DNA from: Bernardetia sp. ABR2-2B
GTDB taxonomy: Bacteria; Bacteroidota; Bacteroidia; Cytophagales; Bernardetiaceae
Direction: 5' to 3'
Length of the DNA: 64,000 bases
Assembly (NCBI RefSeq): GCF_037126435.1
Contig: NZ_CP147020.1
Location: 1,843,293-1,907,292 of the forward strand
The notes below the pieces were generated by a model. The model was not told the DNA's origin. It saw only the letters and a program-made list of their open reading frames with translations, and ran no database searches. The first letter of the stretch is position 1, and each line of letters starts with the position of its first letter. Shown here piece by piece: positions 10,379 to 63,636 of the stretch. The translations under genes were made by a program, and so were the position numbers.

Positions 10379-11239
10379 ATGAAAACTCGTTTTACTTCAA
10401 CTCATATTTTTTCATTTCTACTTTCTGCTTTTGGAATAGCTATCATTATTTTTGGAAGTGGTTTTTTTCCTGCTTCTATCAAAACAGAATACAAAAACGA
10501 ATATGTTTCTTTTGAGAAAATAAATAATTCCTCATCTGTTTATAGATTCTTACTGCCTTCTCATTTGTTCAAAACTACACAAGATACAGCAGGAATGGTC
10601 TTTGTCAGAGGAAGTGTTTTTAATATGGGAAGTACCGTTTTTGAAAATGAAATGCCTATTCACGAAGTAGAGTTAGATGATTTTTATATCGGAAGATATG
10701 AAGTTACAGTAAAACAATATAGAGAATTTTGTGAAGCAACGGGAAGAGATATGCCAAAAGAACCAATGTGGGGCTGGGACGATACGCACCCAGTTGTGGG
10801 CGTAACATGGGATGATGCTAGTCAGTATGCAGAATGGGCAGGAAAGCGTTTGCCAACAGAATCGGAGTGGGAATATGCAGCACGAGGAGGATTAAGCACC
10901 TTAAATTATACATATTCAGGTGCAAATTATGCAGAAGTAGTAGGTTGGTATGAAGGAAATTCGGTAGAAATGGTACAACCTATTGGACTCAAAAGACCCA
11001 ATGAATTAGGTATTTATGATATGTCTGGAAATGTTTGGGAATGGTGTTTTGACCATTATGGACGTTATCGCCAAGGACGCACAAAAAACCCAAAAGGCGT
11101 TCCACAAGGATTAAATCGTTGTATTAGAGGTGGAAGTTGGTTTGGAAACAAAGGAAATTTACGCACAGCAAATCGTTATTATAATCCTCAAGGTTTTGGT
11201 AGTAACTTGATTGGTTTTAGAGTGGCGATGGATAAATAA
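10379..11239 (+). CDS. Formylglycine-generating enzyme (FGE/SUMF1) family protein.
   Basis: 286-aa ORF with an N-terminal TM/signal segment and FGE-sulfatase signatures (RLPTESEWEYAARGG, RGGSWF, GFRVA). Confidence 0.7.
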   Translation: MKTRFTSTHIFSFLLSAFGIAIIIFGSGFFPASIKTEYKNEYVSFEKINNSSSVYRFLLPSHLFKTTQDTAGMVFVRGSVFNMGSTVFENEMPIHEVELDDFYIGRYEVTVKQYREFCEATGRDMPKEPMWGWDDTHPVVGVTWDDASQYAEWAGKRLPTESEWEYAARGGLSTLNYTYSGANYAEVVGWYEGNSVEMVQPIGLKRPNELGIYDMSGNVWEWCFDHYGRYRQGRTKNPKGVPQGLNRCIRGGSWFGNKGNLRTANRYYNPQGFGSNLIGFRVAMDK

Positions 11240-11307
11240 AGGCAGTTATCAGTTGGAAACTATATTTCAATTACTTTAGTATAAAAATGACGTTTTTTAG
11301 TGAGAAA

Positions 11308-11345
11308 AATTCGTAATTCGTAATTTGTAATTCGTAATTCTAAAG
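11308..11345. repeat. Tandem heptamer repeat (GTAATTC)x5 with one variant. A CAGTTA(T/C)CAG element lies just before it at 11255-11270 and in reverse orientation at 11353-11368.
   Basis: Read directly from the sequence: ttcgtaattcgtaatttgtaattcgtaattc. Confidence 0.8.
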
Positions 11346-11348
11346 AAA

Positions 11349-12707
11349 TTAATTGGTAACTGATTTAAGCTCCCAATTGGCAGCATCTGCAAAAATTCCT
11401 CTTTCGGCTTGTTCGAATGCATTTCTTGCTTCGCCATAATTTTTGAGTCTTTTATAGAATAATCCTAGTAGAAAGTAATATTTTGAGCGAGTTTCATTGT
11501 CTAGTTTTGGAAAGTTTTTCAGAGCTTTTTGTACGATTACTATGCCTTCTTTATCTCTAATCGTTTTATAATGAGCCACTGCTTCCAAAAAATAAATCTC
11601 TTGTCTTTTGGGTTCTAATTGCAAACACGAATCAGCAACTTTTATAGCTTCGTTATAGCGTTTTTCATATACAAAAAGACGAGTAAGGTCGTAATAATAA
11701 GCTGCATCGTGAGATTCATGTTCAGAAATTTTTATTTTCTGACGAATATGATCAATGATTTGAGATTTATCATCTTCTTGATGTTCTACTTTATTCAGAA
11801 AAACTTGTGCTGGAGAATAGTCTGGTTTTATAGTAAGGGCTGTTCGTAGATAGCGCAAACTTTTATCAAAATCATACATAAAAAAATAAACATAGCCCAA
11901 ATTATAATAATATGCTGGTGCTGTATTTTCTAATTCTGTCTTGAGTTTTTTATCTTTTATTCTAGCATAATAAGTAGTCATTCCATCAAAATCCTGCAAA
12001 CGAAAAGCACAACTGGTATAAATAAATGCAGCTTTTTGAATAGGATATGCATTCGACTTTGTCTTTTCTAAAATTGTTTTGGTAAGTTTTTGGGCATCTT
12101 CGTATTCTGAATTTTGATACAGAATATTAGCAAGAGAAAGCGCAACAGGAGGAGGAATATTTTCTAACTGTTCATTTTTAAAATACTCATCTGCATAGCT
12201 TACCGTTTCCTTATCAATTTTTTTAGTTTCGTCAGAAAGAATAATAATTCTTCCTAAAATCGTATTTTTTTCTTGTACTTGGGAGGAAGGGACATGTAAA
12301 AGAGCCTTTTTATAATATGAAAAAGCCTGTGGAATAGAATCTGCCTTTTCATATAAAAAGCCTAATCTATAATTGGCTTCAAAATTCGTTTTATCTACCT
12401 TGATAGCTTCTTGATAAAGCCCAACAGCTCTAGGAATATTTTTGAGTTGCTCCATATACAACCCTGTATAATAAAGCAATTCTGTATTTTGAGAATCAGC
12501 GTTTAAAGATGTTTTCAAAAGATTTAGTCCGTCTTGAGGATTTCCATTTTGAGCCATTTCAACAGCTTTAGTATAGACTTCTGGTTGAGCTTGGAGAGCA
12601 TTGAAACCCAAAAGCACAAAAAACAAACTACATGTTAGAGTAATGTTTCTTATAAAAAAAATGTTGTTCTTTGTACTTTTCACAATTTGTAGGTTTAAAT
12701 TCTTCAA
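11349..12707 (-). CDS. Secreted TPR-repeat protein.
   Basis: 452-aa ORF with an N-terminal signal/TM segment followed by multiple TPR-like repeats (Y/A/L periodicity). Confidence 0.55.
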   Translation of the reverse strand: MKNLNLQIVKSTKNNIFFIRNITLTCSLFFVLLGFNALQAQPEVYTKAVEMAQNGNPQDGLNLLKTSLNADSQNTELLYYTGLYMEQLKNIPRAVGLYQEAIKVDKTNFEANYRLGFLYEKADSIPQAFSYYKKALLHVPSSQVQEKNTILGRIIILSDETKKIDKETVSYADEYFKNEQLENIPPPVALSLANILYQNSEYEDAQKLTKTILEKTKSNAYPIQKAAFIYTSCAFRLQDFDGMTTYYARIKDKKLKTELENTAPAYYYNLGYVYFFMYDFDKSLRYLRTALTIKPDYSPAQVFLNKVEHQEDDKSQIIDHIRQKIKISEHESHDAAYYYDLTRLFVYEKRYNEAIKVADSCLQLEPKRQEIYFLEAVAHYKTIRDKEGIVIVQKALKNFPKLDNETRSKYYFLLGLFYKRLKNYGEARNAFEQAERGIFADAANWELKSVTN

Positions 12708-16950: not shown

Positions 16951-16971
16951 AGAGATAACACTTCTAAATAA

Positions 16972-17358
16972 ATGAAATCAATATTTTTGCATCTCATTAT
17001 TGTCATAATACTATTATTTGTAATAGTAGATAATGAACCAATACGTTCTTTTATTTTTGACGTAAAAACAGATAAAGTAGTAGTCATAGATCAAGGACGC
17101 AAATATAAGAGTCAATTTGCTAAAGTATCACATATATATAAAGGAAAAGAATATATAAGAGAAATACATTTAGATACAAATTTTTATAAATTCTATAATA
17201 CTGGAGACAGCATGAAGATATCATACCTAAAAGATAAACCAGATGATGCTATCTATCATAAAGGTCTTCCTATATACTTTCTTGCAGCATTAATACTTGG
17301 TTTAACTATATTTATGTCTACTCTATTTATTAAAATTTATCATTATTTTAAGAAGTAG
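16972..17358 (+). CDS. Small hypothetical membrane protein (ORFan) bracketed by repeats.
   Basis: 128-aa ORF with an N-terminal and a C-terminal hydrophobic helix. Confidence 0.35.
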   Translation: MKSIFLHLIIVIILLFVIVDNEPIRSFIFDVKTDKVVVIDQGRKYKSQFAKVSHIYKGKEYIREIHLDTNFYKFYNTGDSMKISYLKDKPDDAIYHKGLPIYFLAALILGLTIFMSTLFIKIYHYFKK

Positions 17359-17399
17359 CCCTCGTTCGTCGTAGTTTTCCAATAGCCAAACAAAAAAAA

Positions 17400-17590
17400 T
17401 GAATGTTGGGCGTTGTCTTTAGCGAAGCGATGACTACGACCTATCAGTTTGGCAAATCTTAGATTTGCGAGTGTCAGTATTTTTGTAATTACTGCGTTCT
17501 TGTTGGTGTTCCCATTTGCGAAAACCCACAAAGCCGTTGTTGTGTCTTTAGTTTCGGTTTGCCGTTACGCTGACCAACAACAGCGAGTAG
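17400..17590 (-). repeat. Composite R1 (17400-17500) plus R2 (17496-17590) repeat in reverse orientation.
   Basis: Reverse complement matches the R1 consensus (taattacaaaaatact...caaatctaagattt...gataggtcgtagtcatcg) and the R2 hairpin. Confidence 0.8.
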
Positions 17591-17625
17591 GAGGCATTGA
17601 ATAACTAGCTTTTAAAGTTTATAAA

Positions 17626-18519: not shown

Positions 18520-18610
18520 AATAAAAAGGAGATTTTAAATTTATTGTTCTTTGAAATAATGAAGTTACCAAATTACTATAAAAAAATCATTATTCGTAAA
18601 TGAATACTAA

Positions 18611-19780
18611 TTAATTTGGTTTTTTGATTTTATCTCCTACTTTAAGTCCCTTCAAAACTTCAATATTTATTCCATCTGAAAGCCCTAAAGTAAGATAGCG
18701 TTTTTCAAAAACATTTTCACTTGTTTGAACTTCTACATAAAAAGCATCAGATTTTTGATTTGAGTCTTTAGTTTCTGTTTTGGTAGAATCTATCTTGTTT
18801 TCTTCTTTTTTATCTGATTTATTGTTTTTTTCTTTGTTTTTATCAGCCGATTGTAACCACGCTTCTTCAATTACAATTACATCATCTTTTCTTTCCAAAA
18901 CAATATCTGCATTAGCACTATAACCAGCACGAACAAATTGATTTTCTTTAAGTTCTACGTCTGCTTTTATCGGAAACTTAATTGCTCCTTCTTCTTCAAT
19001 GCCTTTTGGTGCGATAAAATCTAGTTTCGCATCAAATTTTTCATTGTCGATTGCTCCAATTGTCAAGACCAAATCCATTCCTTTTTTTAATTTTCCTACT
19101 TCTGCCTCATCTACTTTTCCTTCAAAAATCATATCACTCAAATCTGCAATGGTTGCAATCGTTGTTCCTTCATTAAATGTATTACTTTCAATTACGTTTG
19201 CCCCTTCTTTGATAGGAACGTCCAAAATAATTCCACTCGTAGTTGCTTTTACTAATGTTAGTGTGCTAGAAGAACGGCTAGAAGTTCCTTCACGAACAAT
19301 AACCAAACTCTCTGCAGCTGCATTTACCTGATTTTTCGCCAAATCGTAATCGTCTTTTGCAAGCATATATTCACGCTCTGCAATTACGCCATCTTCAAAA
19401 AGCTGCTTTTGTCTTTTCATTTCACGCTCACGCATATCTAAGGTAAGCTTTGCTTGTTCTAAGTTATTCTGAACATTAGTAAGGTTAGTCATATTCGGAA
19501 TTACTTTTATTTTAGCAATTACATCTCCTACTTTTACTGTTTGCCCAGCTTCAAAAAAAATTTTGTCAACAATACCCGAAACGGCAGGTTTTACAGTTAC
19601 TTCTTTCAGAGGAACAATCGAACCTGTTGCAACCGTTTTCTTTATTATAGAATCTTTTCTTGGAGAAACCAATTCTATATCTTCTTGTACGTCTTCTTCT
19701 TGATTAACAAAATAATAAACAACAAAAACTCCCATAGCTATAAGTAAAAGCACAAAGGAAGCGATAAAAATTTTTTTCAT
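18611..19780 (-). CDS. Efflux transporter periplasmic adaptor subunit (HlyD/MacA-like membrane fusion protein).
   Basis: 389-aa ORF with an N-terminal TM anchor, a coiled-coil hairpin region (LEQAKLTLDMREREMKRQKQLFEDGVIAEREY), a biotinyl/lipoyl-like beta domain and a lysine-rich tail. Confidence 0.6.
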   Translation of the reverse strand: MKKIFIASFVLLLIAMGVFVVYYFVNQEEDVQEDIELVSPRKDSIIKKTVATGSIVPLKEVTVKPAVSGIVDKIFFEAGQTVKVGDVIAKIKVIPNMTNLTNVQNNLEQAKLTLDMREREMKRQKQLFEDGVIAEREYMLAKDDYDLAKNQVNAAAESLVIVREGTSSRSSSTLTLVKATTSGIILDVPIKEGANVIESNTFNEGTTIATIADLSDMIFEGKVDEAEVGKLKKGMDLVLTIGAIDNEKFDAKLDFIAPKGIEEEGAIKFPIKADVELKENQFVRAGYSANADIVLERKDDVIVIEEAWLQSADKNKEKNNKSDKKEENKIDSTKTETKDSNQKSDAFYVEVQTSENVFEKRYLTLGLSDGINIEVLKGLKVGDKIKKPN

Positions 19781-20677: not shown

Positions 20678-21442
20678 TCAGAATTTATAAGAAATTCCTA
20701 GATGCAGATTGATTTGATAAAAACGCATTTGCCAAATTGTATTTTTATTTCCTACTGAATTGGACAAATATTTCAATGAACTTTCTCCAAAAACTCCCCA
20801 ATGATTAGTTAGTTGATAATGACTTTGATGGAAACCTGAAAAGAATGGGATTACTTGTTTGGCACTTGGAAATTGAGCTGTACTTTCATAAATCTCATAA
20901 TTGGTAGTTTCATTTGTAAGTAACAAAAGCCCTGTTTTTACTCCTATTTGATGTTTCCATTTTTTAGATTGGAATAAAGAATAAGAGATTCCTAAATCTA
21001 TTTTAAAATAAGTGCTTTCATAATTTATAGTTTGGGTTTGTAGGCTATCTCTATTTCCATAAATAGGCTGTATAGATACATGATTTGTAGAAATTTTGGT
21101 GGCTATGTAGTTAGTTGGTGTAGAATAATAATTTCCTCCAAATTGATACTTAACTGTATTTTTCCATTTTAAAATACCTATATCAGTATGTAAACTCCAT
21201 TTTTGAGATAAGTTTCTTTCTGCCATAAAACCAAATGTAAGACTCTGACGCTCACTGAGAGTTTGTTTGTCATTAAGCATTCTTACATAATGTTTGTCAA
21301 TTGGATTTGCTGCAAAATGTTTGTAGGTCATTCCAAAACCTGTGTAAGAGGCAATTTTCCATTTTGAAAGCATATTTGATTCTTTGTTCAAACTCTTACT
21401 CCATTGACAAAACTTTAATTTTTTGATCAAATTTAGTTTCAC
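20678..21442 (-). CDS. Outer-membrane beta-barrel-like protein whose 5' end runs into the IS4 element. It is probably N-terminally truncated or disrupted.
   Basis: 254-aa ORF ending GISYKF (aromatic C-terminus typical of OM barrels). The first ~12 codons lie inside the IS left end, and no signal peptide follows the internal Met at 21373. Confidence 0.35.
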   Translation of the reverse strand: MKLNLIKKLKFCQWSKSLNKESNMLSKWKIASYTGFGMTYKHFAANPIDKHYVRMLNDKQTLSERQSLTFGFMAERNLSQKWSLHTDIGILKWKNTVKYQFGGNYYSTPTNYIATKISTNHVSIQPIYGNRDSLQTQTINYESTYFKIDLGISYSLFQSKKWKHQIGVKTGLLLLTNETTNYEIYESTAQFPSAKQVIPFFSGFHQSHYQLTNHWGVFGESSLKYLSNSVGNKNTIWQMRFYQINLHLGISYKF

Positions 21443-22484
21443 TAGTCATTGGATTATTGAGTATTTTTTTAATTTCTATTAATCCATATCTGAAAAAAGA
21501 GTATTCATTATATCCATTTGAACAGACTCTTATTTTTGTTTTTTTATGTTTCCATTCTCCTACTTTGTAACACCAAACAAAGGCAATGGAACACAAAGCA
21601 ATTAATTTAGCTATTTTATTTGGTTCTGTTAATTTTGTATTTTCTAAGTTAAAACCTTGTGATTTTAGTGCTTTAAACAACGTTTCGATTTCCCAACGTT
21701 GTTTATAAATTTCAAAAATATTATCCAATAAAACAGGTGATGCTAAATAAATATATCCTTTTTGTGTTCGACTTACAGATAAATATACCTCTGCTTCATT
21801 GACTACAAATGTTCCATCTAGTTGATAGGTTTCTGAAATCGAAAGCCCTCTACACCATGCTACAATAGACTTTGTTTTCCCTTTTCTAGTAGCTTTAAAG
21901 TTAGATTTTATACGCATTACAAAATCAAATTTTTTTGTAGCTAAATAGAAAAACCATTTTTTACCTATAAACTCTCTATCTGCTACAAGAGCAGTAATAG
22001 ATAAATTAGGAAATTGATTTAAGAAATCTTCTATCAAATCAATTCGTTGTTGAGTAGCTGAATTTCCTGTCCTCGAAAGTACAGACCAACAAAGAGGAAT
22101 AGATACCCCTTTATGAGCTGCTGAGAGAAGCAAAATATTAATATGCTCTTTTCCAACTTTCCAATTCGTTCTATCCAAACACAGTACGATATTTTCCCAT
22201 TGTTCAATGCCTTCTAAGGAAATAATCAAATTAGTAATTGCTTGAAAATCAAGCTCATAATAATTTAAAAAGCGTTCTATACGACGTAAAGAAGAACTGT
22301 ATTCTACATTCCTTTCAAACGCAGTTGCAATTTGAATTAAACCTCCTAGACCTACCTTTATAACAGCTATTACAAAAAGACCTATAAATTGAACTCGGGC
22401 TAAATGAAACCCTTTTAAATGAGAAGATAAAACACTAACTAATTTTGTAACTTTACCACTAGAAGCATACTTTGCTTTCGCCAT
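21396..22484 (-). CDS. IS4-family DDE transposase.
   Basis: 362-aa ORF with the IS4-type C-terminal motif YKQRWEIETLFKALK. Confidence 0.7.
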   Translation of the reverse strand: MAKAKYASSGKVTKLVSVLSSHLKGFHLARVQFIGLFVIAVIKVGLGGLIQIATAFERNVEYSSSLRRIERFLNYYELDFQAITNLIISLEGIEQWENIVLCLDRTNWKVGKEHINILLLSAAHKGVSIPLCWSVLSRTGNSATQQRIDLIEDFLNQFPNLSITALVADREFIGKKWFFYLATKKFDFVMRIKSNFKATRKGKTKSIVAWCRGLSISETYQLDGTFVVNEAEVYLSVSRTQKGYIYLASPVLLDNIFEIYKQRWEIETLFKALKSQGFNLENTKLTEPNKIAKLIALCSIAFVWCYKVGEWKHKKTKIRVCSNGYNEYSFFRYGLIEIKKILNNPMTSETKFDQKIKVLSME

Positions 22485-22551
22485 AATTGAGAAAAATTTT
22501 GTGAGAAACTCAATTATGGCTTTTTTTTATCTAAATTTAAAATCTTTTGTC
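21405..22551 (-). mobile_element. IS4-family insertion sequence (boundaries approximate).
   Basis: Imperfect terminal inverted repeats near 21405 (gacaaaactttaatttt) and 22551 (reverse complement gacaaaagattttaaattt) enclose the transposase gene. Confidence 0.5.
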
Positions 22552-23318
22552 AGAGGACTGAGGTTCAAACTACCTTTTTTATTATCATTTGATACAATTT
22601 TGATAGAGTCTATTTGCATTTCAAAAAATGGGTCTGCATTTGTTTTTATTTCTCCAAGAGACTTTTCTTCTAATACAAATATCATTTTTTTATCTTCTTG
22701 AGTAACGGCAGTTATTTCTGCTTGTGTTTCTTGCAAATTTTCTTGAGTTATATTTACTACCTCGTTATTTTCATCATCACTACTTAAGTCAGTTGTCAAA
22801 CCAATATTTTTACTAACATTTTCTTGTGTAGTTGCTTTTTGAGAAAAGCGAGAAGACTTTGTAATAACTTTAGATGAAGTAGTTTCATTTGATAATGTTT
22901 TTTTTGTATTAGATATAGAATTATTAATCTGATTTTCTGATACATTAGACTTTGTATTTTTATTTATATCAGACTGAATGGTTGAGTTTTCTGTGGCAGA
23001 ATTAGTATCTGATTTTTCTATATCAGAAGTCATGTTTGTTTCTTTTTTTACTGTTTGGTTAGTAGTGTTGCAAGTAAAGTTAGGAGAAGATATATTATTT
23101 TCAGATGAAATAATATATAATCCAATGCCAAGACTTGAAACTAAAATCAAACCTAAAGCTAAAAACCAGTAGAGAAATTTTGGTCTTGAAGATTTATCTA
23201 GTTGCTCAGAAATTTTGTCCCAGCCATCAAGAGGAGGCAGAGATTCCCATTCATTAACTTTGGAAAAGCTGTTTTTCCATTCAGAATCATTTTGAGAGTT
23301 GTGTATATTGTTGTCCAT
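22527..23318 (-). CDS. Putative anti-sigma factor with a single TM helix and an S/T/N-rich extracytoplasmic region.
   Basis: 263-aa ORF immediately downstream of the ECF sigma gene. It has a cytoplasmic N-terminus (W/E-rich) followed by a TM segment (FLYWFLALGLILVSSLGIGLYI) and a low-complexity tail. Its 3' end abuts the IS right end. Confidence 0.5.
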   Translation of the reverse strand: MDNNIHNSQNDSEWKNSFSKVNEWESLPPLDGWDKISEQLDKSSRPKFLYWFLALGLILVSSLGIGLYIISSENNISSPNFTCNTTNQTVKKETNMTSDIEKSDTNSATENSTIQSDINKNTKSNVSENQINNSISNTKKTLSNETTSSKVITKSSRFSQKATTQENVSKNIGLTTDLSSDDENNEVVNITQENLQETQAEITAVTQEDKKMIFVLEEKSLGEIKTNADPFFEMQIDSIKIVSNDNKKGSLNLSPLTKDFKFR

Positions 23319-29771: not shown

Positions 29772-30713
29772 ATGAGTCTGAGTGTCAATCATTTATTAGG
29801 AATAAAAGACCTTACCCAAGCTGATATTTTGCATATTTTTGAAATGGCAGAGCAGTTTAAGGAAGTTATTAATCGTCCTATCAAAAAAGTACCTTCTTTA
29901 CGTGATATTACGATTGCTAATGTTTTTTTTGAAAACTCTACTCGTACTCGTATTTCTTTCGAACTCGCTCAAAAACGTCTTTCTGCTGATGTAGTTAATT
30001 TTTCTGCAAGTAATAGTTCAGTTTCAAAAGGAGAAACACTTCTTGATACAGTTAATAATATTTTGGCAATGAAGGTAGATATGATTGTGATGCGTCATTC
30101 TAGTGCAGGTGCGCCTCATTTTTTATCCAAACATATCAATGCAGCTATCGTAAATGCAGGAGACGGAACACACGAACACCCAACACAAGCACTTTTAGAT
30201 ACTTTTTCGATTAGAGAAAAATTAGGTGAAGTAGCAGGAAAAAAAGTGGCTATTATTGGAGATATTTCGCATTCAAGAGTAGCTCTTTCTAATATTTTTG
30301 CACTTCAAAAACTGGGTGCAGAAGTGATGCTTTGTGGAATGCCTACACTAATTCCAAAGTTTATAAATCAATTAGGAGTAAAGGTAAGTTATAATCTCAG
30401 AGAAGCTTTAGAATGGTGTGATGTTGCAAATGTGTTGCGTATTCAGTTAGAAAGGCAAGATGTAAAAAATATTCCTTCGCTGCGTGAATATTCACTTTAT
30501 TATGGAATAAATAAAGAATTATTGGATTCTCTCAATAAAGAAATTGTAATTATGCACCCTGGACCCATTAATAGAGGAGTAGAAATTGATAGTGATGTAG
30601 CCGATTCTGAACACTCAATTATTCTTAATCAAGTAGAAAATGGTGTTGCTATCCGAATGGCTGTGTTGTATCTTTTGGCTGAGAAAATAAAACCGAAATC
30701 AGTTACCAGTTAG
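29772..30713 (+). CDS. pyrB: Aspartate carbamoyltransferase catalytic subunit.
   Basis: 313-aa ORF with the ATCase motifs STRTR, HPTQ (EHPTQALLD) and HPGP (MHPGPINRG). Confidence 0.85.
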   Translation: MSLSVNHLLGIKDLTQADILHIFEMAEQFKEVINRPIKKVPSLRDITIANVFFENSTRTRISFELAQKRLSADVVNFSASNSSVSKGETLLDTVNNILAMKVDMIVMRHSSAGAPHFLSKHINAAIVNAGDGTHEHPTQALLDTFSIREKLGEVAGKKVAIIGDISHSRVALSNIFALQKLGAEVMLCGMPTLIPKFINQLGVKVSYNLREALEWCDVANVLRIQLERQDVKNIPSLREYSLYYGINKELLDSLNKEIVIMHPGPINRGVEIDSDVADSEHSIILNQVENGVAIRMAVLYLLAEKIKPKSVTS

Positions 30714-30734
30714 CAGTAATCAGTTACCAGTTTT
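30698..30734 (+). repeat. CAGTTACCAGT heptamer-like tandem element (aatcagttaccagttagcagtaatcagttaccagtttt) overlapping the pyrB stop codon.
   Basis: Near-identical 38-bp element at 60441-60479 adjacent to the recR start. Confidence 0.75.
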
Positions 30735-32701: not shown

Positions 32702-32799
32702 GTATATTTTAGGAAAATTTGTATGTTTGTTGCTAGTCATTGTATTTTCAGAAATATTCCGTAAATAATAGATGTTGGGAATGTTATACTACCCTATGA

Positions 32800-33075
32800 A
32801 AAACACAAAAAAACTACTTGAACTGCAAATCTAAGATTTGCTAAAATGATAGGTAGTAGTCATCGCTGCGCTAAAGACAACGCCCAACATTCGTTTTTTT
32901 ACCTTTTATTTGGAACACTACGCACATCAGGTTTTTTTTTGGTTTTGTGGGAAGTTAGTAGATTTGTGAGGGTATTGTTTGTTGTTGGTCATCGTAACGG
33001 CAAACCGAAACTAAAGACCAACAACGGCTTCTTTATAATGCTTTGGTTTTTTTGGAAGACCAACAAGAACGCAGA
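32800..33075 (+). repeat. Composite R1 (32800-32935) plus R2 (32925-33075) repeat.
   Basis: R1 core gcaaatctaagatttgctaaaatgataggtagtagtcatcgctgcgctaaagacaacgcccaaca followed by the R2 hairpin gttgttggtcatcgtaacggcaaaccgaaactaaagaccaacaac. Confidence 0.8.
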
Positions 33076-33115
33076 TAAAGAATTAAAGCAACATCATAAT
33101 TACGACAATTAACTT

Positions 33116-33778: not shown

Positions 33779-33780
33779 AT

Positions 33781-34145
33781 ATACACTGTTGTTGGTCATC
33801 GTAACGGCAAACCGAAACTAAAGACCAACAACGGCTTCTTATCTAATGATTTGGACTTTTTGGAAGACCAACAAGAACGTAACAACGGCTTTTTTTACGT
33901 TTTTAGCAAATCGGAACACCAACAAGAACGTAGAATTTGAATAAAAATCTGTTTTTTTTTGATTTGAGTTTTTTGTTTTTTGTGGGAAGTTATTAGGTTT
34001 GTGGGGTGTGTTTGTTGTTGGTCATCGTAACGGCAAGCCGAAACTAAAGACCAACAACGGCTTCTTTCTAATGATTTGGATTTTTTGGAAGACCAACAAG
34101 AACGTAGACAACGCTTAACTACTACTGTTTTGGAACACTACGCTC
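33781..34145 (+). repeat. Two tandem R2 copies (33781-33925 carries three ccaacaagaacg motifs; 33955-34115) plus an R1-type terminal motif (ggaacactacgctcatcagg).
   Basis: Direct sequence match to the other R2 copies. Confidence 0.8.
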
Positions 34146-40715: not shown

Positions 40716-40812
40716 AAAAAAGCCTTTCAAAAAATAAATTTTGAAAGGCTTTTTGATTATATAATGTATTGTTGGTGTCACTTTGCTAAAACACCAACAA
40801 CGGCATTTCAGA
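40716..40812. terminator. Two hairpins (aaagcctttcaaaa...ttttgaaaggcttt at 40716-40760; tgttggtgt...acaccaaca at 40773-40802) between higA and the 3' end of rpoC. The second resembles an R2 fragment (accaacaacggc).
   Basis: Inverted repeats read directly from the sequence. Confidence 0.45.
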
Positions 40813-45414: not shown

Positions 45415-45586
45415 ATCAATTATATATCTTCAAATTTATGTGGTCAAGTAATTACAAAAATACTTACTTGACTTGCAAATCTAAGATTTAGCTACGCTGA
45501 CTTAAAAGTTGCTGAAATGATAGGTCGTAGTCATAAACAACGCTTAGCAATTTTTCTCTAGTTTTTTTGAACACTACGTCCATCTG
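45415..45586 (+). repeat. R1 repeat copy (full length, ~150 bp).
   Basis: About 88% identical to the copy at 45950-46106. It contains taattacaaaaatact, the aaatctaagattt palindrome, gataggtcgtagtcat and ggaacactacg. Confidence 0.85.
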
Positions 45587-45949: not shown

Positions 45950-46106
45950 GTTATATAAACCTTCAAATTTATGTTGTCAAGTAATTACAAAACTACCTAC
46001 TTGACCTGTAAATCTAAGATTAGCTACGCTGACTTAAAAGTTGCTGAAATGATAAATCATAGTCATAGACAACGCTTAACTGATAATTTTTGGGAACACT
46101 AATAGG
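45950..46106 (+). repeat. R1 repeat copy, a direct repeat of 45415-45586.
   Basis: Sequence alignment by eye, about 88% identity. Confidence 0.85.
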
Positions 46107-52191: not shown

Positions 52192-52841
52192 TTATTTTCA
52201 AAAATTATCAAAAAACAAAAAAAACTACTTTCATAATCGTTTTATCTAAGCTAAATTTGTAGATTGTATCATTAATTGTTTAAGCTTTTTAAAACAAGAT
52301 TTTTACTTTAATTAAAATTTTAAAAAAAGTTGTTTAAAAAGTATTTGACAAATACTCAACTGCTTATTCATTTTGATATATTTTTCTCTAAAAAAAAGAG
52401 AAATAATCTTGACCGTACAACTACGATAAATCATTTTTATTTTTTCATAAAATAGGGTTTGCAAACTCTATCTTATGAAAAAGACATTGCATAAATTATC
52501 TTCATAGATTTTATCAAAAAATAAAAATGACTTTTTCCATATATAGCAAAATAAAACAATTCTGAATTTTAATCTAATCAATTGATTTACAGAAACTTAT
52601 ACATAAAATTAATTTAAAGTTTTTACTATACATAAAAATAAAAACTAATTTTGAGCATTTTAAACCCTAGTGTTTTCAAAATCCTTAGGGTTTCGAACCA
52701 TTTTGCGTGTGTAACAAAGATTATTTATTCTTTTTAGAGAAATGAATCTGTTTTTTTGTGATTTTTTTATAAAAAAACAGGTTAGAAGCGAATAAATGTA
52801 AATTATTAATTATGAGTGGTTTTAAATTCTAATTTAAAACA

Positions 52842-52900
52842 TTCGTAATTCGTAATTGAAAATTAGCTATGCTGATTATTTCATAATTCGTAATTATTCC
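52842..52900. repeat. Heptamer tandem motif attcgtaattcgtaattga (52842-52860) plus a partial copy taattcgtaatt (52884-52895), upstream of rny.
   Basis: The same 19-mer occurs at 58201-58219 and 63615-63633. Confidence 0.8.
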
Positions 52901-52931
52901 TTATTCATTCAATCTAAAGAAAATATATATA

Positions 52932-54618: not shown

Positions 54619-56604
54619 ATGAATTTCAAATTTATAGATTTATTTGCTGGAATTGGTGGTTTTCATTTGGCTATGCACAGACTTGGAGGAGAATGTGTTT
54701 TTGCTTCTGAACTAGATGATTTTGCACGTCTTACGTATCAAGAAAATTATCAAAAAATATCTCCTAAGTTATTTGAAGATGATTTATTTAATAAGGATAT
54801 TCGAACAGTTAGTCCAAAAGATTTACCTGATTTTGATGTTCTTTGTGCTGGTTTTCCGTGTCAGCCATTTAGTCAAGCAGGATATAAAAGAGGTTTTGCA
54901 GATAATCATAATTCAGAGAGAGGAAATTTATTTTTTAATATTGCTGAAATTTTGGAAGCAAAAAAGCCAAAAGCATTTTTCTTGGAAAACGTTCGTGGTT
55001 TGGTTACGCATGATAAAGGCAAAACTTTTAAAATCATTCGAAATATTATTGAAAATGAGTTAGGATATTCTTTTTATTATAAAGTCGTTCATGCATCTGA
55101 TTATGGTTTGCCACAACTAAGACCGAGAGTTTTTATAGTGGGTTTTAGAGATGAAAGTTTTATGAGTAGCTTTAATTTTCCTTCTCCTATTCCTTTAAAG
55201 TTTACGATGAGCGATGTTTGGGGGGGAGAATGTAGCCGAGAAATTGGTTTTACTATTCGGGTCGGTGGACGTGGTTCGGCTATTACTGACCGTAGAAATT
55301 GGGATAATTATTTGGTTGATGGACAGACAAAACGCTTGTCTTATATAGAAGCCAAAAAAATGCAGGGTTTTCCAGATGATTTTGAGTTTCCTGTTAGCAA
55401 AACACAAGCTATAAAACAGTTGGGAAATAGTGTGGCTGTGGATGCCGTTGAAGCTGTTGCAAAAAGTTTATTACAACACTTACAAACACTTGAAAATAAT
55501 CAAATTACACAAAACTCTAACTCTGACGAAATGGCAATCAAACCTACTAAAAATAAAGGAGAATGGACTGAGTTACTACTTTTTATAAAATTGCTATTAG
55601 ATAAAAAATTATATCTATCTGACAAAAACCTCAATACCACAAGCAGTTATTTTAAAATAAATAAAGTAACAACACACAATTTAGATTTGGAGTTTCTCTT
55701 ATCAAACTCTTCTACAATTATATCAAAAAATAAATTCGACAAGACAGAAAAACAAATCAGTATTTCTAAAATAATTACTCCTTCTATCATTCAATCTTTT
55801 GTTGAAAAAATAAAAAAGGAAAAAGGCACATTCGAAATTCCATCATTTAATATTATTCAAGATGAATTGGGTTTTAATGTTGTAAAAGGTGGAAATAGCA
55901 ATCAAAAAGCTGATATTTTATTAGATATTGAAAACGAAATTATACAAAAAGAAAACGAAGGCTTTGGAATAAAATCATATTTAGGAAGCAAACCAACGCT
56001 ATTAAATGCGTCTGGAAATACAAATTTTATATTCAAGGTAAATGGTATAGAAAAAGGCAATAAAACTATTATTGATGAGGTAAATCAAATAAATACAAGA
56101 ACAAAACTAAAGGATAGAATCAATAAAATAGAAGAGCTAGGTGGAAACTTTGAATATTTGGGAGCAGAAAGAGATACAATGGATTTTAACCTTAAAATGA
56201 TAGATAGTCAGATGCCAAAACTGATAGGAGAAATTCTACTTTGTTTTTATAAAGAACGAGTTTCTTCCATCGAAAAAATCACCAAGAGAATCATAGGAAA
56301 GGAGAAGGACGAAGAAATTTTACTAAAAAACAAAATCAAAAATCTATTGGTAAGTATCCTTTTAGGTTTCTTTGCAGGAACAAAATGGGATGGTGCATTT
56401 CAATCTAATGGAACAATCGTAATGAAAAATAATGGCGACTGTGTAGGTTTCCATATTGTAGAAATGGAGAATCTGAAAAATTATTTATTTGAAAATATTA
56501 AATTAGATATGCCTTCTACAACTAGACACCGTTTTGGACAACTTTATTCTGAAAAAAATGGAGAGTTATTTTTTAAATTAAATTTACAGTTACGTTTTAG
56601 TTGA
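54619..56604 (+). CDS. DNA (cytosine-5)-methyltransferase (aa 1 to ~290) fused to an uncharacterised ~370-aa C-terminal domain.
   Basis: C5-MTase motif I FIDLFAGIGGF, motif IV GFPCQPFSQAG, motif VI ENVRGL and motif X QLGNSVAV. The C-terminal half (from ~LQTLENNQ) has no MTase motifs. It has D/E/K clusters (ADILLDIENEIIQK) compatible with a PD-(D/E)xK nuclease, but this is not verified. Confidence 0.75.
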   Translation: MNFKFIDLFAGIGGFHLAMHRLGGECVFASELDDFARLTYQENYQKISPKLFEDDLFNKDIRTVSPKDLPDFDVLCAGFPCQPFSQAGYKRGFADNHNSERGNLFFNIAEILEAKKPKAFFLENVRGLVTHDKGKTFKIIRNIIENELGYSFYYKVVHASDYGLPQLRPRVFIVGFRDESFMSSFNFPSPIPLKFTMSDVWGGECSREIGFTIRVGGRGSAITDRRNWDNYLVDGQTKRLSYIEAKKMQGFPDDFEFPVSKTQAIKQLGNSVAVDAVEAVAKSLLQHLQTLENNQITQNSNSDEMAIKPTKNKGEWTELLLFIKLLLDKKLYLSDKNLNTTSSYFKINKVTTHNLDLEFLLSNSSTIISKNKFDKTEKQISISKIITPSIIQSFVEKIKKEKGTFEIPSFNIIQDELGFNVVKGGNSNQKADILLDIENEIIQKENEGFGIKSYLGSKPTLLNASGNTNFIFKVNGIEKGNKTIIDEVNQINTRTKLKDRINKIEELGGNFEYLGAERDTMDFNLKMIDSQMPKLIGEILLCFYKERVSSIEKITKRIIGKEKDEEILLKNKIKNLLVSILLGFFAGTKWDGAFQSNGTIVMKNNGDCVGFHIVEMENLKNYLFENIKLDMPSTTRHRFGQLYSEKNGELFFKLNLQLRFS

Positions 56605-56684
56605 TATTTGAAATTTCTGATTGAATTACCGTAATTCGTATTTACTTCTAAATTCTACCTTCTAAACTTTAAATTTGTTTATTT

Positions 56685-57332: not shown

Positions 57333-57600
57333 AATAAAACTAGAAGTATGAAGTTAGATTTCAGAAGTAATACAAAATGATTTATTCGAAAAACTCTAAT
57401 AAATACAATAATTTTGATTATTTTTAATCGAAAGTGAAATTTTTATGCTCTTCTCTCAACTAACTTTAAAAAGGTTCTGAAAACGTTTGTAGCATTTCTT
57501 TCGTTGGTATTGAGATTGAATCAAATCAATTTATTACTTATTTAAACTTCTTCTGACATTGTTGGTGTTCTTACCATACATCATTTTAAAATAAAAAACT

Positions 57601-58005: not shown

Positions 58006-58196
58006 AGCTAGTCAGATTCTTAGGTTTTAAGAAAAATCAAAAACTATTGCTAATCGTATAACGTTTGCAAAAGTATAAGACCTTTTTTATAAATTTATTG
58101 AATAGAATCAAGCAAAACAAAGTAGGTCAATCTCCTATTCCAAATTATTGGAATTGTAATTTTATTGATATAAATAAATGTATCATAATCGTAACT

Positions 58197-58219
58197 TTTA
58201 ATTCGTAATTCGTAATTGA
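58197..58219 (+). repeat. Heptamer motif tttaattcgtaattcgtaattga, 9 bp upstream of the pspA-like ATG.
   Basis: Identical 23-mer at 63611-63633. Confidence 0.8.
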
Positions 58220-59839: not shown

Positions 59840-60439
59840 TTAATCAAACATAATTCGTTTGGCAATACTTCTTCCCAATGTAATTTCATCTGTATATTCA
59901 AGTTCACTTCCAATCGGAACTCCACGAGCAATCCCGCTCACTTTTACCCCTTGTTTTCTTAGTTTTTTCGTGAGATAAAAAGCCGTTGTATCCCCTTCCA
60001 TAGTTGCATTGAGAGCCAAAATTACCTCTTTTACCCCATTTTGAGTTCTTTCTAAAAGAGAATCTATATTCAAATCTGATGGACTAATTCCTTCAATAGG
60101 AGAAATGACACCTCCCAAAACGTGATACAATCCATTATATTGTGCTGTATTTTCGATAGCTAACAAGTCTGGCACTTCTTCCACTACACAAATCAAACTC
60201 TCATCTCTCTTCGGACTCTTACAAATACTACAGATATCTGTATCTGAAATAGTATGACATTTTTTGCAATAAACTGTTTTTTCTCTAAGCGCAATCAAAG
60301 ATTTTGTAAGTTCTTCTACGTCTTGAATTTCTTGTCCTAGAAGATGCAAAGCCAAACGCAAAGCCGATTTTTTACCAATACCGGGCAAACGAGAAATTTC
60401 ATTTACAGCATCTTCTACTAATTTGGAGGGATAATTCAT
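59840..60439 (-). CDS. recR: Recombination protein RecR.
   Basis: 199-aa ORF with an HhH (LPGIGKKSALRLALHL), a C4 zinc finger (CKKCHTISDTDICSICK), and Toprim/Walker-like motifs. Confidence 0.9.
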   Translation of the reverse strand: MNYPSKLVEDAVNEISRLPGIGKKSALRLALHLLGQEIQDVEELTKSLIALREKTVYCKKCHTISDTDICSICKSPKRDESLICVVEEVPDLLAIENTAQYNGLYHVLGGVISPIEGISPSDLNIDSLLERTQNGVKEVILALNATMEGDTTAFYLTKKLRKQGVKVSGIARGVPIGSELEYTDEITLGRSIAKRIMFD

Positions 60440-60440
60440 T

Positions 60441-60479
60441 TTAATCAGTTACCAGTAAATAGTTACCAGTAATCAGTTT
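60441..60479 (+). repeat. CAGTTACCAGT element (taatcagttaccagtaaatagttaccagtaatcagtttt) abutting the recR start codon.
   Basis: Near-identical to 30698-30734. Confidence 0.75.
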
Positions 60480-63479: not shown

Positions 63480-63610
63480 AATTATATTTTATTTTGATTC
63501 TGTATATTGATAAATATTCTATTTATAAATAATGTTTGAGATAGAATAAAGTTTAAGCTATTTTTGTGAGAGTTCTATAAAATGGAATATATTATTTCGT
63601 GATTTTTAAT

Positions 63611-63633
63611 TTTTAATTCGTAATTCGTAATTG
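63611..63633 (+). repeat. Heptamer motif tttaattcgtaattcgtaattga ending 3 bp before the GT2 start codon.
   Basis: Identical to 58197-58219. Confidence 0.8.
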
Positions 63634-63636
63634 AGT

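What the first reader, a model, noticed from the sequence alone, without database searches (positions are those of the whole stretch)
52842..52900. Conserved (GTAATTC)n heptamer motif attcgtaattcgtaattga placed 3 to 72 bp upstream of start codons of three unrelated genes
The 19-mer attcgtaattcgtaattga occurs at 52842 (72 bp before the rny ATG), at 58201 (9 bp before the pspA-like ATG) and at 63615 (3 bp before the GT2 ATG). The last two share an identical 23-mer. All are in the same orientation as the downstream gene. A five-unit version sits at 11308-11345 between convergent genes, and a partial one is at 56629. Its position immediately abutting start codons is too close for a promoter, so it may be a 5'-UTR or translation-initiation element, a regulator-binding site, or a hypermutable tract.
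Basis: seen in the sequence. Interest (0 to 1): 0.5.

Follow-up and report, generated by a model that had tools for sequence, protein, structure and literature searches.

The report
Heptamer repeat arrays before start codons
The 19-mer is the intact core of (TAATTCG)n, a 7-base tandem repeat that this bacterial genus (Bernardetia) places in sense orientation just before start codons and that gains or loses whole units between species; it is a new sequence family of a repeat class described once (TAACTGA repeats) whose function is still unknown.

Summary
ATTCGTAATTCGTAATTGA occurs exactly three times (52841, 58201, 63616; none expected by chance), ending 72, 8 and 2 nt before the rny, pspA and GT2 start codons. 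A 4.7-unit array lies at 11306-11344.

The window comes from Bernardetia sp. ABR2-2B (Cytophagales, 32% GC). In 276 kb from about ten Bernardetia genomes, TAATTCG is the commonest perfect heptamer repeat: 12 arrays, against 4 for TAACTGA. It is absent from 1.5 Mb of 80 other Cytophagales and Sphingobacteriales genomes.

- **Placement:** nine unrelated genes carry it in sense orientation, mostly 2-40 nt before the ATG. A second class lies antisense, directly after stop codons.
- **Variability:** orthologous arrays differ by whole units (n = 1, 4, 6), decay, change unit type or are absent.
- **Structure:** the arrays do not fold, do not resemble a Shine-Dalgarno site, carry TAA in all three frames and contain no start codon.

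This matches the TAACTGA heptamer direct repeats of MacGregor (2015), reported in Beggiatoaceae, cyanobacteria and Flexibacter (= Bernardetia) litoralis, but with a different unit.

Best reading: a slippage-prone heptamer array in 5' leaders, probably acting on Shine-Dalgarno-independent translation. That function is inferred, not shown. It is a new member of a known kind, of moderate interest.

The parts
52839..52859 (+). (TAATTCG)n array, 5' half, in the rny leader. It contains the exact 19-mer and ends 72 nt before ATG 52932.
   Evidence: The orthologous arrays in L081, L553 and L555 are contiguous. The array is absent in L086/L087.
52860..52885 (+). A roughly 24-26 nt non-repeat insert (AAAATTAGCTATGCTGATTATTTCA) that splits the rny array.
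   Evidence: Absent from the orthologous arrays of L081 and L555. A near-identical segment lies inside the pspA-leader array of another genome (L554), with a variant in L553.
52877..52898 (+). 3' half of the rny-leader array (ATAATTCGTAATTATT), ending 33 nt before the ATG. It overlaps the last bases of the insert.
56629..56675 (+). Vestigial TAATTCG array (CCGTAATTCGTATTTA) followed by TTCTAAA/TTCTACC-type heptamers, in the leader of rpe (ATG 56685).
   Evidence: Orthologues L081 and L555 have full TAATTCG arrays here. L082, L086, L553 and L554 have TTCTAAC-type heptamers.
58186..58219 (+). pspA-leader array: TAAT-CG, TAACTTT, TAATTCG, TAATTCG, TAATTGA. Decayed units come first, then perfect units. 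It ends 8 nt before ATG 58228.
   Evidence: The closest relative, L081, has one unit fewer. Array position and state differ in L082, L086, L553 and L554, and no array is visible within about 240 nt upstream in L555.
63596..63634 (+). GT2-leader array: TCGTGAT, TTTTAAT, TTTTAAT, TCGTAAT, TCGTAAT, TGA. It ends 2 nt before ATG 63637.
   Evidence: A shorter, decayed array abuts the orthologous ATG in L086/L087.
63534..63566 (+). Promoter-like motif TTTG-N20-TATTTTTG (Bacteroidetes -33/-7 type) upstream of the GT2 array. It places the array in the 5' UTR (inference).
   Evidence: The motif and the 28 nt before it are identical in L086. The distance from the motif to the ATG is 70 nt in the window and 57 nt in L086.
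11306..11344 (+). Array AAA(ATTCGTA)4ATTCTAAA between convergent genes. It lies 4 nt beyond the stop of the TPR gene 11349..12707(-), antisense to it, and 66 nt after the stop of the FGE-sulfatase-like gene 10379..11239(+).
   Evidence: The same flanks hold n = 1 in L556 and n = 6 in L558. L557 has a 2-unit version overlapping the TPR stop. L559 has TAACTGA-type units instead.
60440..60478 (-). Sister family: TAACTGA-type heptamers (ACTGGTA/ACTGATT units), in sense orientation, ending 3 nt before the recR start (gene 59840..60439, minus strand).
   Evidence: Such an array abuts the recR ATG in all seven genomes compared.
11243..11257 (+). Sister family: (CAGTTAT)~2, which is TAACTGA in reverse orientation, directly after the stop of gene 10379..11239.
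   Evidence: The copy number at this orthologous site is about 2.5 (L556), 4 (L558) and 13 (L557). L559 has (AGTTGGG)9 there instead.

Best explanation
**What it is (shown).** The 19-mer is the best-preserved part of short tandem arrays of the heptanucleotide TAATTCG (GTAATTC is the same repeat in another register).
- These arrays are the commonest heptamer-repeat family in the Bernardetia DNA sampled.
- They lie outside coding sequence in two stereotyped placements. The first is in sense orientation, ending mostly 2-40 nt before start codons of unrelated genes. The second is in antisense orientation, directly after or overlapping stop codons.
- They change by whole 7-nt units between species. 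Older units decay at the edges, and arrays are gained, lost or replaced by other TAA-containing heptamers (TAACTGA, TAACTTC) at the same gene.
- This behaviour fits replication slippage or unequal exchange in a simple-sequence repeat.

**Where it acts (inferred).** The arrays before start codons are transcribed as part of the 5' leader.

**How it most likely works (inferred, untested).** Bacteroidota do not use Shine-Dalgarno pairing. In that setting the sense-strand RNA (UAAUUCG)n would be an A/U-rich, unstructured stretch with no start codon and a stop in every frame, placed directly in front of the AUG.
- Such a stretch would keep the initiation region single-stranded.
- It could offer a repeated landing site for a single-strand RNA-binding protein, such as ribosomal protein S1 or a cold-shock-type OB-fold protein (one per heptamer).
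- Unit number and spacing would then tune translation of the downstream gene.

This is the idea MacGregor proposed for TAACTGA repeats.

**My probabilities.**
- It is a heptamer simple-sequence-repeat family of that class: about 0.9.
- It lies in the 5' leader: about 0.7.
- It has a real effect on translation: about 0.35-0.4.
For: **Real and non-random**
- Three exact 19-mers where none is expected.
- Period 7 is the only enriched tandem period among periods 5-12.
- Autocorrelation at 7 and 14 nt is raised in the 49 nt before starts and after stops of 219 genes, but not in coding sequence.

**Family and lineage**
- The source is Bernardetia sp. ABR2-2B, by 100% identical proteins.
- Perfect arrays of two or more units: 12 TAATTCG and 4 TAACTGA in 276 kb of Bernardetia. 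All other units occur once.
- TAATTCG arrays: none in 1.53 Mb from 80 other Cytophagales and Sphingobacteriales genomes.

**Position**
- For nine independent genes the array is in sense orientation.
- In seven of those nine it lies in the last 7% of the spacer before the ATG (binomial P = 2.6e-7).
- No array of at least 17 nt was found in reverse orientation within 80 nt of a start (9 of 9, P = 0.004).
- The start codons are credible from their conserved N-termini (PspA MWIFFKRL, GT2 MLSVVMPVFNGEKFL, Dcd MILSDK).

**Orientation follows the gene, not the chromosome strand**
- The minus-strand gene recR carries a sense-oriented TAACTGA-type array in all seven genomes.
- Opposite orientations occur within about 100 nt of each other in the L555 rny-rpe spacer.

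**Slippage and turnover**
- n = 1, 4 and 6 between identical flanks.
- pspA has one unit fewer in the nearest relative.
- The rny array is absent in L086/L087, although both flanks are conserved.

**Leader location**
- A conserved TTTG-N20-TATTTTTG motif lies upstream of the GT2 array.
- -7-like boxes lie far upstream of the rny array.

**RNA properties**
- No stable fold: z = +0.2, -0.7, -1.5, +1.0 and +1.5 against shuffles.
- No Rfam hit in the window.
- The sense strand contains TAA in all three frames, and neither strand contains ATG, GTG or TTG.
- B. litoralis uses Shine-Dalgarno sites at 0.1% of genes (PMC10783764).

**The unit is not arbitrary**
- Three composition-matched scrambled units gave 17, 34 and 53 contigs.
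- Arrays occur in contigs of 30-67% GC.

**Precedent**
- TAACTGA repeats have the same placement, including in F. litoralis (PMC4679880).
- Deleting heptamer repeats in Nostoc changed reporter expression (bioRxiv 10.1101/2022.06.06.494920).
Against: - There is no expression, transcription-start or binding data for any Bernardetia array, so function is pure inference.
- Presence is not strictly conserved. rny lacks the array in L086/L087, and pspA lacks it in L555.
- In pspA the array sits on different sides of a conserved leader block in different species. This looks like frequent gain and loss rather than a constrained site.
- The spacing to the ATG is not fixed (2 to about 70 nt).
- The antisense-after-stop class is not explained by a translation-initiation role.
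- Outside Bernardetia the same unit shows no forward bias: 21 forward vs 16 reverse in metagenome contigs, and 29 vs 45 in viral contigs. There it often forms inverted pairs that fold into long hairpins. The unit therefore has no single universal role.
- The sample covers only two chromosomal neighbourhoods (about 276 kb). Eight of the nine forward cases come from the pspA neighbourhood, and all eight are on the strand that pspA is on.
- No canonical -7 box was found upstream of the pspA array.
Confidence: 0.55

Rival explanations
1. Functionless by-product of slippage. Heptamer arrays arise and spread because the replication machinery of this lineage slips in 7-nt steps. They persist only where they do no harm, in untranslated spacers. 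The orientation bias exists because the TAA-containing, start-codon-free strand is the harmless one next to a start codon.
For: - Copy number changes by whole units, and arrays decay, are lost or are replaced between species.
- The distance to the ATG varies.
- Arrays occur at different positions in the same leader.
- Many different heptamer units occur in array-rich contigs.
- Heptanucleotides are the commonest long simple-sequence-repeat class in prokaryotes and have been attributed to polymerase slippage (Mrazek 2007, as summarised in PMC4679880).
Against: - Random seeding would give random units. Yet one unit makes up 12 of the 37 perfect arrays, and a second makes up 4.
- The same two units far outnumber scrambled controls in viral contigs.
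- They also occur as AT-rich arrays in contigs of 55-67% GC.
- Seven of nine arrays lie in the last 7% of the spacer. Tolerance alone predicts a spread across the spacer.
- Heptamer arrays persist before recR, rpe and pspA across species whose surrounding spacers no longer align.
Confidence: 0.3
2. DNA-level operator. The tandem heptads would be binding sites for a transcription factor or nucleoid protein that controls a regulon, as ToxR and H-NS act at the TTTTGAT heptads of the Vibrio cholerae ctxAB promoter.
For: - The same motif lies in front of many unrelated genes.
- AT-rich heptad repeats are known protein-binding sites whose copy number affects promoter activity (bioRxiv 10.1101/2021.05.14.444153).
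- In some metagenome contigs the array lies just upstream of a TAnnTTTG -7 box (L113, L116, L126).
Against: - In Bernardetia the arrays end 2-11 nt from the ATG in six of nine genes.
- In GT2 the array lies downstream of the conserved promoter-like motif, so it is not in an activator position.
- The strict sense orientation, and the class next to stop codons, fit a transcript-level feature better.
- No repeat-binding regulator has been identified.
Confidence: 0.1
3. Phase-variation (contingency) switch. Rapid gain or loss of units within a population would turn the downstream gene on and off.
For: Unit number differs between species. Repeats between promoter and start codon control uspA2 in Moraxella (cited in PMC4679880).
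Against: - The arrays are short (2-3 perfect units).
- The genes served are housekeeping genes (rny, rpe, dcd, pspA, recR), not surface or virulence genes.
- Near-identical genomes (L086 vs L087) and four B. litoralis assemblies have identical arrays.
Confidence: 0.03
4. Footprint of a small mobile element. The identical 24-mer at two loci would reflect copy-and-paste of a mini-element rather than local slippage.
For: - An identical 24-mer lies before both pspA and GT2.
- A roughly 24-nt segment, AATTAGCTAYGCTGATTATTTCA, is found inside arrays at unrelated loci in different genomes.
- The arrays cluster within 11 kb of the window.
Against: - The arrays have no terminal inverted repeats, target duplications or stable fold.
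- Orthologous loci differ by exact unit numbers between conserved flanks.
- The ancestral-looking form TTTTAATTCGTAATTG at both loci, in relatives, differs from the window by one unit. Parallel expansion is therefore enough to explain the identical 24-mer.
Confidence: 0.05

Closest known systems
TAACTGA heptamer direct repeats (MacGregor 2015, Front Microbiol 6:1397, PMC4679880)
   Same: - Tandem 7-nt direct repeats of 2-6 units, intergenic, in 'forward' orientation.
- They end a few nt before start codons of functionally unrelated genes that lack Shine-Dalgarno sites.
- Occasional sets lie in reverse orientation right after a stop codon.
- Relatives differ by indels in 7-nt steps.
- The known hosts include Flexibacter (= Bernardetia) litoralis DSM 6794, with 12 of 14 sets forward and 1-43 nt from a start.
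- TAACTGA-type arrays also occur in this window, for example in the recR leader at 60440-60478.
   Different: - The unit is TAATTCG, which matches TAACTGA at 4 of 7 positions.
- In the Bernardetia DNA sampled it is about three times commoner than TAACTGA.
- It was not found in the searchable literature.
- That paper reported related heptamers as rare in the Beggiatoaceae genome and did not describe this family.
Heptanucleotide long simple-sequence repeats, including cyanobacterial STRR sequences (Mrazek 2007 as cited in PMC4679880; STRR from my own knowledge of Mazel et al. 1990)
   Same: - Head-to-tail 7-nt units, mostly intergenic.
- Many loci per genome and several unit families per genome.
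- Copy number changes in unit steps.
- Slippage is the proposed origin.
   Different: - The unit sequences differ (STRR: CCCCAGT, TTGGTCA, CAACAGT).
- The host phylum differs.
- Those classes are not defined by sense orientation next to start codons.
Nostoc PCC 7120 heptamer repeats near recF and recO (bioRxiv 10.1101/2022.06.06.494920)
   Same: Contiguous heptamers close to, or overlapping, start codons or promoters of many genes. Deleting them altered reporter output. A binding partner is postulated but not identified.
   Different: The units differ (TTTTGAA and others), and the host is a cyanobacterium that does use Shine-Dalgarno sites. The effects reported were mainly on promoter activity.
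TTTTGAT heptad repeats of the Vibrio cholerae ctxAB promoter (bioRxiv 10.1101/2021.05.14.444153)
   Same: AT-rich tandem heptads whose copy number varies between strains and affects expression.
   Different: They lie upstream of the core promoter, act on DNA through ToxR/ToxT/H-NS, and occur at a single locus. They are not a genome-wide family abutting start codons.
Repeat tracts in 5' UTRs of phase-variable genes (Moraxella uspA2 AGAT repeats, cited in PMC4679880; Haemophilus hmw 7-bp repeats from my own knowledge)
   Same: Tandem repeats between promoter and start codon, with expression depending on unit number.
   Different: Those are long, fast-changing tracts at a few surface-protein genes of pathogens. 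Here the arrays are short and serve housekeeping genes. No variation was seen between near-identical genomes.

Membership tests
Heptamer direct repeats upstream of start codons (TAACTGA class, PMC4679880) | Tandem direct repeats of a 7-nt unit, about 2-6 copies per set | tested here: met
   arrays of 2.0-6.7 perfect units, with decayed units at the edges
Heptamer direct repeats upstream of start codons (TAACTGA class, PMC4679880) | Intergenic, with most sets ending within a few to a few tens of nt of a start codon | tested here: met
   nine genes, with distances of 2, 2, 4, 7, 8, 10, 11, 32 and 122 nt. Seven of nine lie in the last 7% of the spacer (P = 2.6e-7).
Heptamer direct repeats upstream of start codons (TAACTGA class, PMC4679880) | [quoted passage not shown] | tested here: met
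   9 of 9 arrays of at least 17 nt within about 120 nt of a start are forward. Only two or three weak reverse matches (15-16 nt) were found. The sample is small and drawn from two neighbourhoods.
Heptamer direct repeats upstream of start codons (TAACTGA class, PMC4679880) | Unit sequence TAACTGA | tested here: not met
   The unit is TAATTCG. This makes it a sister family, not a member in the strict sequence sense. True TAACTGA-type arrays co-occur in the same genomes.
Heptamer direct repeats upstream of start codons (TAACTGA class, PMC4679880) | Downstream genes functionally unrelated and no Shine-Dalgarno site in the repeat | tested here: met
   The genes are rny, rpe, pspA, GT2, dcd and a GAF-domain protein, among others. 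The unit contains no GGAG. B. litoralis uses Shine-Dalgarno sites at 0.1% of genes.
Heptamer direct repeats upstream of start codons (TAACTGA class, PMC4679880) | Bound by a post-transcriptional regulator (hypothesised by the authors, never shown) | not testable with these tools
   Needs RNA pull-down and reporter assays
Long simple-sequence repeat / VNTR | Copy number differs by whole units between relatives, with conserved flanks | tested here: met
   AAA(ATTCGTA)nATTCTAAA with n = 1 (L556), 4 (window) and 6 (L558). In the same spacer (CAGTTAT)n has n of about 2, 2.5, 4 and 13.
Long simple-sequence repeat / VNTR | Arrays longer or more frequent than composition predicts | tested here: met
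   0-1.2 expected, 4-13 observed; only period 7 is enriched
Cyanobacterial STRR | STRR unit sequences and a heterocystous-cyanobacterial host | tested here: not met
   The unit is TAATTCG and the host is Bernardetia, Bacteroidota
Phase-variation contingency locus | Repeat number varies between very close strains or within a population | tested here: inconclusive
   L086 and L087 are identical, as are four B. litoralis assemblies. The latter may be the same strain, and the arrays compared are decayed ones.
Phase-variation contingency locus | Controls surface, virulence or restriction-modification genes | tested here: not met
   The genes served are housekeeping genes
Heptad operator upstream of a promoter (ctxAB type) | Repeats lie upstream of the core promoter | tested here: not met
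   The arrays abut the ATG. The GT2 array is downstream of the conserved TTTG-N20-TATTTTTG motif. The promoter assignment is by motif only.
Structured RNA element / MITE / REP | Stable, conserved secondary structure or terminal inverted repeats | tested here: not met
   z-scores from +1.5 to -1.5; no Rfam family.

The most novel reading that the evidence does not exclude
TAATTCG and TAACTGA arrays would be a shared cis-acting code read by a dedicated single-strand nucleic-acid-binding protein, one OB-fold per heptamer. For a subset of genes this protein would replace Shine-Dalgarno recognition, with sense arrays before starts and complementary arrays after stops. The code would have spread horizontally among Bacteroidota, cyanobacteria, giant sulfur bacteria and their phages, where the same units are reused as long hairpin arms.
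Probability: 0.12. Interest if true: 0.8.

Novelty: new member of a known kind. Interest (0 to 1): 0.45.

Why it matters
Heptamer repeats placed directly before start codons have been known since 2015, but nobody knows what they do. The original hosts, the giant sulfur bacteria, cannot be cultured.

This work shows that a cultured, free-living genus (Bernardetia; B. litoralis DSM 6794 is a type strain) carries a commoner family of the same class. The arrays sit in front of ordinary housekeeping genes, with clear orientation and position rules and natural alleles of 1, 4 and 6 units.

That makes the open question directly testable with reporters, 5'-end mapping and RNA pull-downs. The test would be done in a phylum whose Shine-Dalgarno-independent translation initiation is itself only partly understood.

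If the arrays turn out to be neutral, they are still a clean natural example of 7-nt slippage and of how selection filters where such repeats may sit.

Tried and rejected
- **Source-genome look-ups.** Exact-protein look-ups of window proteins (pspA, rny) found nothing on record. The source genome could not be fetched, so no whole-genome scan was possible.
- **Genome-collection scan.** It returned only relatives at about 60% identity. They served as a negative control but not for synteny.
- **Known RNA families.** Rfam gave no hit in the window.
- **Stable RNA structure in the leaders.** None was found.
- **Pairing between arrays.** Pairing between the after-stop and before-start arrays is modest in the one case tested (L555, z = -1.7).
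- **Canonical Bacteroidetes -7 box upstream of the pspA array.** None was found in the window.
- **Array as promoter of a leaderless mRNA.** Rejected: the array-proximal octamers fit TAnnTTTG poorly (by inspection of the sequence).
- **Forward bias as a universal property of the unit.** Rejected: metagenome and viral contigs show none.
- **A protein that co-occurs with arrays in array-rich viral contigs.**
  - The contigs are mostly unrelated to each other.
  - The only protein shared by three contigs is DUF3164, which I recognise as Mu-like phage-associated. It offers no link to repeat binding.
- **Replication-strand bias as the cause of the orientation.** Unlikely, because both orientations occur within about 100 nt and minus-strand recR carries a sense array. 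It is not formally excluded with two neighbourhoods only.

Full report
**1. Observation**

The exact 19-mer ATTCGTAATTCGTAATTGA occurs at 52841-52859, 58201-58219 and 63616-63634, all on the + strand. None was expected in 100 dinucleotide-preserving shuffles. The 9-mer TTCGTAATT occurs 13 times against 1.2 expected, 12 of them on the + strand.

The copies end 72, 8 and 2 nt before the start codons of rny (52932), pspA (58228) and a family-2 glycosyltransferase (63637). The last two share an identical 24-mer. A 4.7-unit array lies at 11306-11344 between convergent genes, and a vestige lies at 56629-56644. The finding is confirmed, apart from one-base coordinate offsets.

**2. Source and setting**

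PspA, PolX and a hypothetical protein of the window are 100% identical to proteins of Bernardetia sp. ABR2-2B. This is a 32% GC member of the Cytophagales.

I fetched syntenic loci from other Bernardetia genomes:
- L081 and L556: strain OM2101.
- L082: B. litoralis DSM 6794.
- L086: Wsw4-3y2.
- L087 and L557: MNP-M8.
- L553-L555, L558 and L559: metagenome-assembled genomes.

With the window this gives 276 kb with called genes.

**3. Anatomy**

Read in the register TAATTCG, each site is a short tandem array. Perfect units lie in the centre and decayed units at the edges. The pspA leader, for example, reads TAAT-CG, TAACTTT, TAATTCG, TAATTCG, TAATTGA.

Period 7 is the only enriched tandem period among periods 5-12, in the window and in the other Bernardetia loci. 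Autocorrelation at 7 and 14 nt is raised in the 49 nt before starts and after stops of 219 genes, but not in coding sequence.

Several unit families coexist, and most contain TAA: TAATTCG, TAACTGA, TAACTTC and TAATCAC. Among perfect arrays of two or more units, TAATTCG is the commonest (12), TAACTGA is second (4), and all other units are singletons. Neither is a general Cytophagales trait. In 1.53 Mb from 80 other genomes there are no TAATTCG arrays and one TAACTGA array.

**4. Comparative behaviour**

Orthologous arrays differ by whole units.
- The spacer between the convergent genes reads AAA(ATTCGTA)nATTCTAAA with n = 1 (L556), 4 (window) and 6 (L558).
- At its other end, (CAGTTAT)n has n of about 2, 2.5, 4 and 13, and is replaced by (AGTTGGG)9 in L559.
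- The pspA array has one unit fewer in the closest relative.
- The rny array is contiguous in L081 and L555, split by a roughly 24-nt insert in the window, and absent in L086/L087 although both flanks are conserved.
- The GT2 array is shorter in L086/L087 but still abuts the ATG.
- In the pspA leader the array lies on different sides of a conserved block in different species, and no array is visible within about 240 nt upstream in L555.

Arrays therefore turn over quickly on the species scale. Near-identical genomes, however, show no differences.

**5. Position and orientation**

Using called genes, arrays of at least 17 nt lie in sense orientation upstream of nine independent genes:
- rny, rpe, pspA and GT2;
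- three further B. litoralis genes, including dcd;
- a GAF-domain gene in L555;
- a minus-strand gene in L557.

Seven of the nine arrays lie within the last 7% of their spacer (binomial P = 2.6e-7). No strong reverse array lies within 80 nt of a start (9 of 9, P = 0.004). The start codons are credible from their conserved N-termini.

A second placement emerged: antisense orientation directly after or overlapping stop codons. It occurs at the TPR gene in four genomes, at a 1090-aa protein in three genomes, and at rny in L555.

The orientation follows the gene rather than the chromosome strand. Minus-strand recR carries a sense TAACTGA-type array abutting its ATG in all seven genomes. Opposite orientations also occur about 50 nt apart in one spacer.

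Caveat: only two neighbourhoods were sampled.

**6. Wider distribution**

The 17-mer ATTCGTAATTCGTAATT hit more than 120 metagenome contigs of 30-67% GC. It also hit more than 120 IMG/VR contigs.
- The host contigs carry many other heptamer units.
- Outside Bernardetia there is no forward bias.
- In several phage-like contigs the arrays form inverted pairs that fold into long hairpins between ORFs (z = -7.8 and -5.1).

The unit is therefore favoured well beyond this genus, but its use differs.

**7. What it is and how it may work**

Shown:
- it is a heptanucleotide simple-sequence-repeat family;
- it changes in 7-nt steps;
- it has strong rules of placement and orientation in this genus.

Inferred: the arrays before start codons are in 5' leaders. 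A conserved TTTG-N20-TATTTTTG motif lies upstream of the GT2 array, with the distance to the ATG differing between species.

The RNA has these properties:
- it is unstructured;
- it matches no Rfam family;
- it does not resemble a Shine-Dalgarno site;
- it has TAA in every frame on the sense strand and no ATG, GTG or TTG on either strand.

B. litoralis essentially lacks Shine-Dalgarno usage (PMC10783764).

The most likely mechanism is that of MacGregor's hypothesis. The array would be an open, repeated landing platform for a single-strand RNA-binding protein (S1 or Csp-like) or for the ribosome itself. Unit number and spacing would modulate initiation.

I rate this at about 0.35-0.4. The chief rival, tolerated slippage debris filtered by selection, I rate at about 0.3. 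A DNA-level operator (about 0.1), mobile-element footprints (about 0.05) and phase variation (about 0.03) are less likely, for the reasons given under the rivals.

**8. Comparison with what is known**

The closest match is the TAACTGA heptamer direct repeats of Beggiatoaceae, cyanobacteria and five Bacteroidetes, including Flexibacter (= Bernardetia) litoralis. There, 12 of 14 sets are forward and 1-43 nt from a start, and one set is reversed after a stop (PMC4679880).

Every structural criterion of that class is met except the unit sequence. The broader class is heptanucleotide long simple-sequence repeats and cyanobacterial STRR. Experimental hints exist only for Nostoc heptamers, ctxAB heptads and Moraxella 5'-UTR repeats. 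No paper in the searchable library contains the (GTAATTC)2 string in any register.

**9. Verdict**

The feature is real. It is a new sequence family of a known but functionally unexplained kind, and it appears to be the dominant family in a culturable genus. Its interest is moderate: it does not overturn anything, but it gives a tractable system for an open question.

Noticed in passing
window 57559-57582 (leader of the DnaJ-domain gene, ATG 57601); alignment A1: A conserved 10-bp hairpin (GTTGYYNGTG, 4-nt loop, CNNRRCRAC) lies about 20 nt before the start codon in seven Bernardetia genomes. Three of its base pairs are kept through compensatory changes. Similar 'GCCGTTGTTGGTG...CACCAACAAC' hairpins precede other genes (L086 genes 16132-18222 and 18290-18625).
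   Followed up: partly
window 16699-16971, 17359-17625, 32702-33115, 33779-34121, 40770-40810: Dispersed intergenic repeat family built around 'ttgttggtcatcgtaacggcaaaccgaaactaaagaccaacaacggc'. It looks like REP or MITE hairpins and occurs several times per spacer.
   Followed up: no
window about 15900, 17400, 32850, 45560, 46720; also 45430-45500 and 45960-46030: Two further dispersed repeat families: 'gataggtcgtagtcatcgctgcgctaaagacaacgcccaa' and 'caagtaattacaaaaatacttacttgacttgcaaatctaagatttagctacgctgac'. The genome is unusually rich in short intergenic repeats.
   Followed up: no
window 52860-52885; L554 about 9915-9940; L553 about 9918-9940: A roughly 24-nt segment, AATTAGCTAYGCTGATTATTTCA, lies inside TAATTCG arrays at unrelated genes in different genomes (rny here, pspA in L554). 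It is absent from the orthologous rny arrays of L081 and L555. Its core, TAGCTACGCTGA, also occurs in another window repeat at 45489 and 46021. It may be a very small mobile insert that targets heptamer arrays.
   Followed up: partly
window 60440-60478(-), 30697-30732, 11243-11257; L557 4921-5010: TAACTGA-type heptamer arrays occur in the same genomes. One abuts the recR start in all seven genomes compared. The one after the FGE-sulfatase-like gene's stop ranges from about 2 to 13 units between species.
   Followed up: yes
window 52192-52931: rny has a 740-nt upstream spacer with conserved -7-like boxes (TAAATTTG at 52252, TAATTTTG at 52646) and a conserved hairpin (aaaccctag...cttagggttt, about 52690-52720). 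This could be a long regulatory leader or a small RNA. It has no Rfam match.
   Followed up: partly
window 54619-56604: A DNA methylase / HpaII-type endonuclease fusion gene lies between rny and rpe in some Bernardetia genomes (window, L081, L087, L553) but not in others (L086, L555). It is a variable restriction-modification insertion.
   Followed up: no
window 21396-22484(-) and 22527-23318(-): A DDE-family transposase gene lies next to a 263-aa protein with no homologue at E<=1e-60 outside this strain. This is probably an insertion sequence or a strain-specific islet.
   Followed up: no
L217 6388-8792, L269 6485-8307, L270 3661-9101 (IMG/VR contigs): Phage-like contigs of 41-55% GC carry up to about ten (TAATTCG)n arrays. 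Most are inverted pairs that form 20-28-bp AT-rich hairpins in the gaps between ORFs (z = -5 to -8). L270, L218 and L236 encode DUF3164 proteins, a family I associate with Mu-like phages. The hairpins could be terminators or protein-binding sites.
   Followed up: partly
L091 (JRYD01012620.1, 65% GC), L105, L112, L133: Metagenome contigs of 61-67% GC carry several AT-rich (TAATTCG)n arrays alongside other heptamer arrays (GATACGA, CGTGATT, GTAAGAA). The organisms were not identified. AT-rich arrays in GC-rich genomes argue against an origin from local base composition.
   Followed up: no
L095 about 100-180, L160 about 3990-4040, L155 22-90: In some metagenome contigs the array begins directly after a tRNA-like 3' end (ggttcaaatcccc...), or lies just upstream of a tRNA gene.
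   Followed up: no
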